Virus record (IMG/VR): IMGVR_UViG_2531839193_000016
DNA: 64,000 nucleotides
Source of the DNA: a virus
Lineage: Duplodnaviria; Heunggongvirae; Uroviricota; Caudoviricetes
Reading direction: 5' to 3' (one strand)
In this document: piece by piece, positions 48,001 through 51,000 of the stretch
Position numbering within the stretch: position 1 is the stretch's first letter
Layout of the letters: each line of letters opens with the position of its first letter
Made by a program: the position numbers

Positions 48001-51000
48001 GTGGACAGTACAAAAGAGGCACTCACCGCGCTCAGTTCGCTGCACTGCTCAATGCGCCAGCGGCTGATCACCTCCTGCTCCGGATCGGCGTCACTGTTTC
48101 CGTTGACGAAGTTCACCGCATCCAGAAAACGGGCGTAAACCTTACGCCGGACCACCGTTCCGCCGACCAGACTCTGTAGATCTTCCGCCATCCCGGTGAC
48201 CATACCGTACAGGTTAGAAACCATCAGCGTGGGGCGCGTACTGGTGCCTTTGCCATTCAGTTCAAAACCACTCCCCTGAATGGGATACGGCTGATACTGT
48301 CGCCCCTGCCAGGTGACCGGCTCACCTTTTTCGTTCTGCTCATTACAGAAAAAATAACGTTCTCCACCGACCTCTGTCAGATCGATTTCCCAGAGCACCA
48401 CGCTGGCCGACTGCTCCGCACGGGTGCATTCATTCAGTGTTTCCTGCCGGATATCCTGCATCAGTTCACCACCTGTTCAAACTCTGCGCTGAACTCAACA
48501 CGCAGCATACTGACCCGCGACGACCATTTTGCGCAGGTCACCTTTATCTGCCGCCACTCATAAGGCGGCGTCCACAGAAAGGCTTTCCAGCCCCCGTGCT
48601 CTTCCAGAAACGACTCCAGTACCATGGCCTCCTCACGGGGGACAGAAAGCGTCACGCTGTACGTTTTCAGGTTGGCATTCAGCCCGGCAGGCGCTCGCTG
48701 GGAATAGCCATCACCAAAGCGCACCTTTCTTACAGAAGGGGCCGAAGCCACATCCATACCGGGTTTCACTTTCCAGCGGAAGGTTTTCATCGTCCACCTC
48801 CGGAGAACAGGCCACCATCACGCATCTGTGTCTGAATTTCATCACGGGCACCCTTGCGGGCCATGTCATACACGGCCTTCATCATCTGTGGACCTGGCAG
48901 ACCATTCGTACCGTCGTTCTGAATCACCACGTGATTGTTCTGATTAAAATTAATGCCTTCAGCCCGCCGCATCTGCGCCGGACTTCCGGCACCGCCCACA
49001 TAACCACCTTCCGCATAGCCGCGCATCAGCCGGTAGAGATTCCCCACGCCAATCCGGCTGGTTGCCTCCTTCGTGAAGACAAATTCACCACGGTGAACAA
49101 TCCCCGCTGGCTCATATTTGCCGCCGGTTCCCGTAAATCCCCCGGTTGCAAAATGGAATTTCGCCGCAGCGGCCTGAATGGCTGTACCACCTGACGCGGA
49201 TGCGCCGCCACCAACAGCCCCGCCAATGGCGCTGCCGATACTCCCGACAATCCCCACCATTGCCTGCTTAAGCAGAATTTCTGTCATCATGGACAGCACG
49301 GAGCGGGTGAAGCTGCGCCAGTTCTGTTCACTGCCGGTCAGCATCGCCGCCATATTCTGTGCAATACCATCAAAGGTCTGCGTGGCTGCACTTTTAACCT
49401 GTGACATACTGTCCGTGGCGCTCTCTTCCCACTCACTCCAGCCGGACTTCAGGCCTGCCATCCAGCTCCCGCGAAGCTGGTCTTCAGCCGCCCAGGTCTT
49501 TTTCTGCTCTGACATGACGTTATTCAGCGCCAGAGGATTATCGCCATACTGTTCCTTCAGGCGCTGTTCCGTGGCTTCCCGCGCTGCCTGCCGGTCAGTC
49601 AGCCCCCGGTTTTTCGCATCAATGGCTGCCCGTTTTGCCCGTTGCTGCTGTGCGAATTTATCCGCCTGCTGCGCCAGCGCATTCAGGTGCTCCTGATACG
49701 TAACCTTGTCACCAAGTGCAGCCAGCTGGCGTTTGTACTCCAGCGTCTCGTCTTTATGCGCCAGCAGGGATTTCTCCTGTGCGGACAGCTGGCGACGTTG
49801 TGCCGCCTCCTCCAGTACCGCGAACTGACTTTCTGCCTTCCACAAATCCCGGCGCTGCTGGCTGATTTTCTCATTCGCTCCGGCATGCTTCTCCAGCGTC
49901 CGGAGTTCTGCCTGAAGCGTCAGCAGGGCCGCATGAGCACTGTCTTCCTGACGATCGCCCGCATACACCTTCACGCCGGACTGTTTCGGCTTTTTCAGCG
50001 TCGCTTCATAATCCTTTTTCGCCGCCGCCATCAGCGTGTTGTAATCTGCCTGCAGGATTTTTCCGTCTTTCAGTGCCTTGTTCAGTTCTTCCTGACGGGC
50101 GGTATATTTCTCCAGCGGCGTCTGCAGCCGTTCGTAAGCCTTCTGCGCCTCTTCGGTATATTTCAGCCGTGACGCTTCGGTATCGCTCTGCTGCTGCGCA
50201 TTTTTGTCCTGTTGACGCTGTTGATCTACCCTCTTTTGGGCTGCATCCCGCTCCAGGCGTTTTTTTCACGATCATCCCAGTAACGCGCCCGTGCTTCATC
50301 GTTAACGAAATAATCATCCTTGCGCAGATTCCAGATGTCGTCTGCTTTCTTAAACGCAGCCTCTGCCTTAATCAGCATCTCCTGCGCGGTATCAGGACGA
50401 CCAATATCCAGCACCGCATCCCACATGGATTTGAATGCACGTGCAATCCTGTCTGCCCAGGTCTCCAGCGTGCCCATGTTCTCTTTCAGGCGGCGGGTCT
50501 GGTCATCAAACCCTTTCGTTGCGGCCTCGTTCGCCGCCTGCAATGCCCCGGCTTCATCGCCGGAACGCTGCAACTGAGCAACATACGCAATCTGCTCCGC
50601 CGTCACGTTATGGAACTGGCGTGCCATCGCCGTCAGCCCCGACGTCGGGTCTGTGGTCAGCTTCCCGAAGGCTTCAGCGACCTTGTCCACCTCCACGCCG
50701 GATGCAGAGGAGAAACGCGCCACACTCTGGCTGATGGACGCAATCTGAGCCTCACCGCTTACCCCCGCCTTAACCAGTGCGCTGAGTGACTCGCTGGTCT
50801 GGTTAAACGTCAGCCCTGCCGCCTGCCCGGCTCTGGACAGGACCAGCATACGATCTGCCGTCAGTCCCGCCTGATTACCGGAAAGGACCAGCGTTTTGTT
50901 GAAATCGGACAGGGTTGAGTTGCCCTGATACCAGGCATACGCCAGCGCACCGGTCGCCACCGCCAGCGAGGTGGCCCCCACCATCGGCAGGGTGATCGCG

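What the first reader, a model, noticed from the sequence alone, without database searches (positions are those of the whole stretch)
50226..50270. Tape measure gene H of the lambda-like prophage lacks one base in a T7/A7 run
Translating the minus strand upstream of the 48787..50031 ORF continues in frame through lambda-H-like sequence (…QQRQQDKNAQQQSDTEASRLKYTEEAQKAYERL…) up to the run. An eighth A changes …WDDREKNAWSGMQPKRG-stop into …WDDREKKRLERDAAQKRVDQQ… and gives one 853-codon gene. If real, this prophage cannot make a normal tail.
Basis: seen in the sequence. Interest (0 to 1): 0.4.

Follow-up and report, generated by a model that had tools for sequence, protein, structure and literature searches.

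The report
Probable one-base assembly error in prophage gene H
The tail tape-measure gene of a lambda-like prophage in this Shigella sonnei draft genome is split by one missing A in a run of A's, but nearly 500 other copies of the same prophage have the extra A and an intact gene, and this draft drops bases in other such runs, so the break is most likely a sequencing error.

Summary
On the minus strand, gene H is split at an A7 run (window 50260-50266) into a 373-codon and a 414-codon ORF, and adding one A restores an 853-codon lambda-type tape measure gene. The window comes from the 2012 draft of Shigella sonnei 3226-85. The repaired protein exists exactly on 484 other contigs, including complete S. 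sonnei chromosomes. The repaired protein carrying this strain's private T301I change exists on 3 more; one of those copies matches the window over 8,562 nt except for this base. All 9 IMG/VR contigs with this allele have A8. Non-A8 states in S. sonnei are confined to the two sister 2012 drafts (A7), one complete genome (A9, with a second unique homopolymer indel in J) and possibly one unexamined assembly that carries the 414-aa fragment. The window's assembly loses homopolymer bases elsewhere: over 20.8 kb it differs from its sister draft by three single-base A/T-run deletions and no substitutions, and 3 of 8 runs of consensus length 7 or more are one base short. Most likely explanation: homopolymer under-calling (about 0.72). 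Rival: a real slippage mutation at a genuine hot spot (about 0.2), since A7 also occurs in two E. coli assemblies of a related prophage. Nothing supports programmed recoding. Low interest.

The parts
50260..50266 (-). A7 homopolymer (T7 on the + strand). The consensus state in this allele is A8.
   Evidence: A8 in ACN002, L010, L014-L020 and 9/9 IMG/VR contigs.
50226..51347 (-). N-terminal part of gene H as deposited: a 373-codon ORF. The last 11 codons (NAWSGMQPKRG) are out of frame and it ends at TAG 50226-50228.
   Evidence: Pfam TMP_2 at residues 54-256, E 1.1e-70.
48787..50259 (-). C-terminal part of gene H in the -1 frame: 490 codons plus stop. The first ATG is at 50031, which gives the 414-codon ORF.
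   Evidence: Pfam Tape_meas_lam_C, E 1.3e-21.
50259..50265 (-). Zero-frame heptamer A_AAA_AAC created by the A7 state. It has the form of a -1 slippery site, but there is no evidence that it is used.
   Evidence: The downstream fold is unremarkable, z = -0.53.
50216..50263 (-). Short mosaic patch that differs from lambda (KKRLERDAAQKRVDQQR in place of KARLALEAARKKAEQQT) and creates the long A-run. Lambda has only A4 here.
50446..50446 (-). Private substitution of this strain in H (ACT to ATT, T301I). It is shared by a few other S. sonnei isolates, and those have A8.
51340..52178 (-). Upstream neighbours G (51756..52178) and T (51340..51774), with the conserved G/T slippery sequence GGGAAAG at 51774-51780.
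48461..48790 (-). Downstream neighbour M (109 codons). It overlaps the H stop as in lambda.

Best explanation
The strain most likely carries an intact 853-codon lambda-type tape measure gene H with an A8 run. The A7 in the deposited draft (Shigella sonnei 3226-85, AKNC01000068.1) is most likely a homopolymer under-call that survived into the consensus. The run is the longest homopolymer in this part of the genome, so it is the place where such an error is most likely. Shown: the one-base difference, the intact state in near-identical copies, and the excess of homopolymer deletions in this assembly. Inferred: that the H difference has the same technical cause. The reads and the sequencing platform could not be examined.
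For: (1) Origin: the exact 373-aa fragment is found only on AKNC01000068.1 of GCA_000268045.1. (2) Population: the repaired A8 protein is present exactly on 484 contigs (482 index blocks, 13 with contigs >1 Mb), named S. sonnei. The repaired protein with the window's private T301I is on 3 more contigs. One of these, L010, matches the window over 8,562 nt with 0 mismatches and 1 gap, which is this base. All 9 IMG/VR contigs with this allele have A8. The 414-aa C-terminal fragment, which would be called in any copy broken here, is on only 4 contigs. (3) Assembly quality: against three near-identical Mu-like prophage copies, the window has six 1-nt deletions, all in homopolymers (12167, 13658, 19765, 21522, 24758, 26068), and only 2 private SNPs. 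Against its sister draft 3233-85, over 20.8 kb, the only differences are three of these deletions and no SNPs. The truncated gp46, baseplate J and SASA N-terminal products are unique to this assembly, whereas the intact forms are on 338 to 1000 or more contigs. The G-run deletion was not found in other carriers of the 382-aa fragment. Of 8 runs with consensus length 7 or more in the compared regions, 3 are one base short in the window. (4) Incompatible character states: T+A8, I+A8, T+A7 and I+A7 all exist. The A7 in the two drafts therefore needs either recurrent change at the run or a shared technical cause. (5) Other assemblies of the same prophage show private homopolymer indels: L018 has four, L020 two, and CP026802.1 has A9 here plus a unique G-run deletion in J.
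Against: The sister draft 3233-85 also has A7, yet it shows no private homopolymer deletions in the 34 kb compared, so its A7 is harder to attribute to noise. A7 also occurs in two other, mutually different assemblies of an ACN002-like E. coli prophage (L012 from run ERR13881969 and L013 from GCA_023621225.1). Their only indel against ACN002 is this run, so real A8-to-A7 slippage at this site is plausible. One of the window's other homopolymer deletions (sheath, 12167) is shared by the sister draft and by independent runs and a metagenome, so it is probably real. The gp41 fragment is likewise on 10 contigs. Not every homopolymer deletion in this contig is therefore an error. The sequencing platform could not be documented and no reads were available. 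Contig counts are not phylogenetically independent.
Confidence: 0.72

Rival explanations
1. A genuine replication-slippage deletion (A8 to A7) in the lineage of the two 1985 isolates. H would be truncated after 362 correct residues plus 11 out-of-frame residues. The C-terminal part that carries the Tape_meas_lam_C domain would be lost and the prophage would be tail-defective. This would be ordinary prophage decay at a mutational hot spot.
For: The two drafts share A7 and are otherwise identical over 13.2 kb except for one SNP. The same change is seen in two distinct E. coli assemblies of a related prophage. A9 is reported in CP026802.1, so all three lengths have been deposited. At least one other homopolymer frameshift in this contig (sheath) looks real. 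From established knowledge, long mononucleotide runs are indel hot spots and Shigella genomes accumulate pseudogenes.
Against: About 487 other contigs that encode the repaired protein exactly have A8, and so do 9/9 IMG/VR contigs with this allele. The I+A8 isolates conflict with simple inheritance of A7. All other morphogenesis genes of this prophage are intact in the window. The window's assembly has several homopolymer deletions that no other assembly examined shares, with no matching substitutions.
Confidence: 0.2
2. The run is a slippage-prone switch (contingency-type phase variation) that turns tail production on and off within populations. A7, A8 and A9 would then be biologically alternating states.
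For: Three run lengths are deposited for essentially the same DNA, and change at the run recurs on two prophage backgrounds.
Against: The off states are very rare (about 4 against about 487 contigs). In S. sonnei they are confined to assemblies that are otherwise suspect. Lambda and most relatives have no run here, only A4. An A8 run is short for a contingency locus (own knowledge).
Confidence: 0.04
3. The A7 state is real, and full-length H is still made by recoding. This would be either -1 ribosomal frameshifting on the zero-frame heptamer A_AAA_AAC (product 853 aa with K363N) or transcriptional slippage adding an A.
For: The heptamer is in the correct frame, and the -1 frame is the H C-terminal frame. 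From own knowledge, lambda needs only a few copies of gpH per tail, so low-level rescue could matter, and slippage on A/T runs is documented in Shigella genes such as mxiE.
Against: There is no stimulatory structure downstream (MFE -23.8 against a shuffle mean of -22.2, z = -0.53). The shifted arrangement is not conserved, because relatives are in frame with A8. From own knowledge, A_AAA_AAC is a weak shifter in E. coli without stimulators, and A7 is short for efficient transcriptional slippage.
Confidence: 0.03

Closest known systems
Bacteriophage lambda gpH, tail length tape measure protein (J02459.1, 853 aa)
   Same: Same length after repair (853 codons). 816 of 853 residues are identical. 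It has the same Pfam domains TMP_2 and Tape_meas_lam_C and the same position between G/T and M-L-K-I-J.
   Different: As deposited, the gene is split by a one-base deficit. A mosaic patch of about 48 nt (residues 363-378) and a divergent block at residues 780-823 differ from lambda. The patch creates an A8 run where lambda has A4.
Intact H of the same prophage in other S. sonnei genomes (e.g. CP032523.1, and GCA_013977585.1 contig AAVAON010000074.1)
   Same: DNA identical to the window over 8.5 kb (L010), and near-identical over 16 kb in seven further S. sonnei loci.
   Different: A8 instead of A7, giving one 853-codon ORF.
H of the prophage in E. coli ACN002 (NZ_CP007491.1, WP_059309227.1)
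   Same: It carries the same mosaic patch and the same A-run context. It is 99.1% identical over 701 nt and intact with A8.
   Different: It differs at 20 residues, mostly in the 780-823 block. It has CGCTTGG rather than CGCCTGG after the run.
Homopolymer-length errors in draft and long-read assemblies (a known class of artefact; own knowledge)
   Same: A single-base deletion in the longest local homopolymer. The same assembly has further private single-base homopolymer deletions without substitutions. Other assemblies of the same prophage show their own.
   Different: The same A7 is present in a second draft that otherwise looks clean, and in two unrelated assemblies of a related prophage.

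Membership tests
Lambda gpH-type tail tape measure protein | N-terminal TMP_2 domain (PF06791) | tested here: met
   E 1.1e-70, 238 bits, residues 54-256 of the 373-aa fragment.
Lambda gpH-type tail tape measure protein | C-terminal Tape_meas_lam_C domain (PF09718) | tested here: met
   E 1.3e-21 in the 414-aa fragment, at residues 627-701 of the repaired protein.
Lambda gpH-type tail tape measure protein | One uninterrupted ORF of about 853 codons | tested here: not met
   As deposited it is split into 373 + 414 codons. The feature is met after adding one A and in 487 contigs that encode the same protein.
Lambda gpH-type tail tape measure protein | Position between the G/T chaperone genes and M-L-K-I-J | tested here: met
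   Gene order V-G-T-H-M-L-K-I-J with matching Pfam families, as in lambda.
Homopolymer under-call artefact of an assembly | The indel lies in a mononucleotide run and is a single base | tested here: met
   A7 against A8.
Homopolymer under-call artefact of an assembly | The same assembly has an excess of private homopolymer indels relative to substitutions | tested here: met
   Six further 1-nt homopolymer deletions against 2 private SNPs. Three deletions and 0 SNPs against the sister draft over 20.8 kb. Several of the truncated products are unique to this assembly.
Homopolymer under-call artefact of an assembly | Independently sequenced near-identical genomes have the intact run | tested here: met
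   484 + 3 contigs, L010, L014-L020 and 9/9 IMG/VR contigs.
Homopolymer under-call artefact of an assembly | Raw reads disagree with the consensus or are ambiguous at the run; the platform is one prone to such errors | not testable with these tools
   There is no access to reads. The paper describing these genomes is not held.
Programmed -1 ribosomal frameshift site | Slippery heptamer X_XXY_YYZ in the zero frame, with the -1 frame continuing the protein | tested here: met
   A_AAA_AAC at 50265..50259. A -1 slip gives 853 aa.
Programmed -1 ribosomal frameshift site | Downstream stimulatory structure | tested here: not met
   z = -0.53 against shuffles for the 106 nt from the run onward.
Programmed -1 ribosomal frameshift site | The two-frame arrangement is conserved among relatives | tested here: not met
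   Relatives are in frame with A8, or with A4 in lambda.
Phase-variable (contingency) homopolymer tract | Frequent on/off length polymorphism among close relatives | tested here: not met
   Non-A8 states are on about 4 of about 490 contigs of this S. sonnei-type H, plus two E. coli assemblies.

The most novel reading that the evidence does not exclude
The A-run created by the mosaic patch in this H allele is a real slippage hot spot, so tail production by this prophage family is switched off and on (A7/A8/A9). Alternatively, the A7 form is partly rescued by -1 frameshifting on A_AAA_AAC or by transcriptional slippage. Either way it would be a tape measure gene whose expression depends on slippage.
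Probability: 0.04. Interest if true: 0.4.

Novelty: not a real feature. Interest (0 to 1): 0.07.

Why it matters
It matters little biologically. If the A7 is an artefact, the lambda-like prophage of S. sonnei 3226-85 has a complete set of head and tail genes and should not be scored as tail-defective. The gene should also not be counted as a pseudogene in studies of prophage decay or Shigella genome reduction. More broadly, this contig carries several single-base homopolymer deletions, so other 'frameshifts' flagged in this window need the same scepticism. If the A7 is real, it is an ordinary inactivating slippage mutation in a prophage structural gene.

Tried and rejected
(1) Three isolated phages (PhiR49_1, PhiR49_1_star, PhiR70_1) have H annotated in two pieces and looked like viable phages with the same split. 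Their breaks lie about 270-300 nt into the gene and they have A4 at this site, so they are irrelevant.

(2) I first took the split Mu-like sheath gene, whose fragments carry accessions named for same-era drafts (DEC6B, DEC6D, 53G), as proof of a platform artefact. I rejected that, because the same 195-aa fragment occurs in independent Logan runs and a metagenome, so it is probably a real allele.

(3) The 382-aa SASA fragment on other contigs might have shown that the G-run deletion is shared. Those cases turned out to be scaffold gaps or contig edges.

(4) Sequencing platform of AKNC/AKND: searches found only a phylogeny table placing 3226-85 in lineage II. The paper describing the Shigella genome set is not held.

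(5) The scan of species-representative genomes for the allele gave 0 hits.

(6) No complete E. coli genome contains this exact prophage. The best match over 24 kb is 96.8% identical.

(7) A search for a frameshift-stimulating structure downstream of the run found nothing beyond shuffled controls.

Full report
**What is in the sequence**

On the minus strand the window carries a lambda-type late operon: Nu1, A, W, B, C, D, E, FI, FII, Z, U, V, G, T, H, M, L, K, I, J, lom and tail fibre genes. Gene H is in two pieces. ORF 50226..51347 (373 codons) ends ...YWDDREKNAWSGMQPKRG-TAG. ORF 48787..50031 (414 codons) lies in the -1 frame, and the H-like reading in that frame continues upstream to 50259. 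The two frames meet at an A7 run at 50260-50266, which is T7 on the + strand. The N-terminal fragment matches Pfam TMP_2 (E 1e-70) and the C-terminal fragment matches Tape_meas_lam_C (E 1e-21). The repaired protein differs from lambda gpH at 37 of 853 residues.

**Where the run comes from**

Lambda and most relatives read GAAAAGGCC here, with only A4. The window has a mosaic patch of about 48 nt (50216-50263) that replaces KARLALEAARKKAEQQT with KKRLERDAAQKRVDQQR and creates the long A-run. Of 3,655 complete E. coli genomes with a match to this part of H, only ACN002 carries the patch at 99% identity or better. There the run is A8 and H is an intact 853-codon gene.

**Origin of the window**

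The exact 373-aa fragment is found on one contig only: AKNC01000068.1 of GCA_000268045.1, Shigella sonnei 3226-85. A published table places this strain in lineage II (PMC5447701).

**How other copies read**

- **A8, standard sequence:** the repaired A8 protein is present letter for letter on 484 contigs named S. sonnei. It is indexed in 482 blocks, 13 of which hold chromosome-sized contigs.
- **A8 with the window's private change:** the window has a private substitution in H (50446, T301I). The repaired protein with that substitution is also present, on 3 S. sonnei contigs. One of them (L010, GCA_013977585.1) matches the window over 8,562 nt with no mismatch and one gap, which is this base.
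- **Seven further S. sonnei loci:** all have A8. Across 16 kb the window's only private differences are this base and the T301I SNP.
- **IMG/VR:** all nine viral contigs that carry the allele have A8.
- **Broken copies:** the 414-aa C-terminal ORF, which any gene caller would report in a copy broken at the run, is on only four contigs. These are the window, the sister draft 3233-85 (A7), the complete genome CP026802.1 (A9), and one more that I could not retrieve.
- **CP026802.1:** it differs from the window over 13.2 kb by the same T/C substitution at 50446, by the A-run, and by a G-run in J that splits J. Both of its truncated products are unique to that record.

**Quality of the window's assembly**

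The window also holds a Mu-like prophage (about 1-26.3 kb).

- Against three near-identical copies, the window has six indels. All are single-base deletions in homopolymers: 12167 A6 to A5, 13658 A7 to A6, 19765 T6 to T5, 21522 A5 to A4, 24758 G6 to G5, and 26068 A7 to A6. There are only two private SNPs.
- Against the sister draft 3233-85, over 20.8 kb, the only differences are three of these deletions and no substitution at all.
- The truncated gp46, baseplate J and SASA N-terminal products exist in no other assembly, whereas the intact proteins are on 338 to 1000 or more contigs.
- The G-run deletion is absent from other carriers of the downstream fragment.
- Of eight runs with consensus length 7 or more in the compared regions, three are one base short in the window.

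Deletions only, in homopolymers only, with essentially no substitutions: this is the signature of under-called homopolymers (own knowledge of flow-based and long-read chemistries) and not of divergence. Other assemblies of the same lambda-like prophage show the same class of private defects. L018 has four and L020 has two.

**A caution**

Not every homopolymer frameshift in this contig is an error. The sheath break at 12167 is shared by the sister draft, by E. coli DEC6B, by several independent Logan runs and by a metagenome, so it is probably a real circulating allele. The gp41 fragment is also on 10 contigs.

A7 in H is also present in the sister draft, which shows no private homopolymer deletions in the 34 kb compared. 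It is present as well in two mutually distinct E. coli assemblies of an ACN002-like prophage, whose only indel against ACN002 is this run. The run is therefore a weak point, whether for polymerases in cells or for sequencers, and a real A8-to-A7 slippage cannot be excluded.

**Weighing artefact against real mutation**

All four combinations of T/I at residue 301 and A7/A8 exist. A7 in both drafts therefore requires either recurrent change at the run or a common technical cause.

Among about 490 contigs of this S. sonnei-type H, the non-A8 states that I could examine belong to the two sister 2012 drafts and to one complete genome with another unique homopolymer indel. In the window's own assembly, about a third of runs of 7 or more are short by one base.

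I therefore put the artefact at about 0.72, a real slippage pseudogene at about 0.2, and slippage-based regulation or recoding at about 0.05-0.07 in total.

**Recoding**

In the A7 state the zero frame reads GAA AAA AAC, which gives the heptamer A_AAA_AAC. A -1 slip would yield an 853-aa protein with K363N. However, the downstream 106 nt fold no better than shuffles (z = -0.53), and the two-frame arrangement is not conserved. There is no positive evidence for programmed frameshifting.

**Consequence if the A7 is real**

From established knowledge of lambda, gpH is the tape measure around which the tail tube polymerises, its C-terminal part is needed for tail assembly, and H-defective mutants make heads without functional tails. 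A 373-residue product would lack that part. All other morphogenesis genes in the window have lambda-like lengths, so H would be the only visible lesion.

**Verdict**

The lesion is most probably not in the organism. Either way it is an ordinary event of a well-known kind, and interest is low.

Noticed in passing
window 12167 (sheath gene, ORFs 11753..12340 and 12184..13254, + strand): The Mu-like prophage tail sheath gene is split by an A6-to-A5 deletion. The identical 195-aa fragment occurs on 11 contigs, including S. sonnei 3233-85, E. coli DEC6B, independent Logan runs and a metagenome. This looks like a real circulating frameshift allele of this prophage, whereas the intact 500-aa form is on 1000 or more contigs.
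   Followed up: partly
window 13658, 19765, 21522, 24758, 26068: Five further single-base homopolymer deletions in the window break gp41, gp46/baseplate J, a tail fibre gene and a SASA/DUF6645 esterase gene of the Mu-like prophage. The sister draft lacks the first three. The truncated gp46, baseplate J and SASA N-terminal products (19765, 24758) are unique to this assembly; those at 21522 and 26068 were not looked up. These are probably assembly errors.
   Followed up: yes
L009 (CP026802.1) 5754-5772 and 11740; window equivalents 50266 and 44292: The complete S. sonnei genome CP026802.1 has A9 in H (447-aa N-terminal fragment) and G4 instead of G5 in J (721 + 374 aa). The 447-aa H fragment and the 721-aa J fragment are unique to that record. 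These are probably long-read homopolymer errors.
   Followed up: partly
L018 (ADUU01000019.1) and L020 (CP041511.1), window equivalent 53683: Two S. sonnei assemblies share a G6-to-G5 deletion that splits gene Z. L018 has three more private homopolymer deletions (T7, G5, G6) and L020 has one more (A5).
   Followed up: no
L001 (PV340568.1) 1501-4061; L002 (PV340577.1) 1501-4061: The isolated phages PhiR49_1, PhiR49_1_star and PhiR70_1 are deposited with H in two pieces, broken about 270-300 nt into the gene, although they were propagated as phages. These may be sequence errors, or H may tolerate the break. Not examined.
   Followed up: no
window 50216-50263: A short mosaic patch within H differs at about 20 of 48 nt from lambda, while the flanks are nearly identical. 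It looks like a small recombination tract, and it is what creates the A8 run.
   Followed up: partly
window 51774-51780 (minus strand): The canonical lambda G/T -1 frameshift heptamer GGGAAAG is present at the end of G, where T overlaps it.
   Followed up: no
window 51230-51236 (minus strand): There is a second A7 run inside H (GCG AAA AAA ACA). It is in frame and identical in all copies compared.
   Followed up: partly
L014 (AAUFWJ010000066.1), window equivalent 57178-57196: One S. sonnei assembly has a 19-bp deletion in the head protease/scaffold gene (C/Nu3 region) of the same prophage.
   Followed up: no
window about 26.3-38.5 kb: A chromosomal segment (mlaA, yfdC, yfdF, intS), with matches annotated as IS1 transposase genes, separates the Mu-like and lambda-like prophages. 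In other S. sonnei assemblies (L016, L019) the Mu-like prophage instead abuts or interrupts the lambda-like tail fibre or J region, which indicates rearrangements between the two prophages.
   Followed up: no
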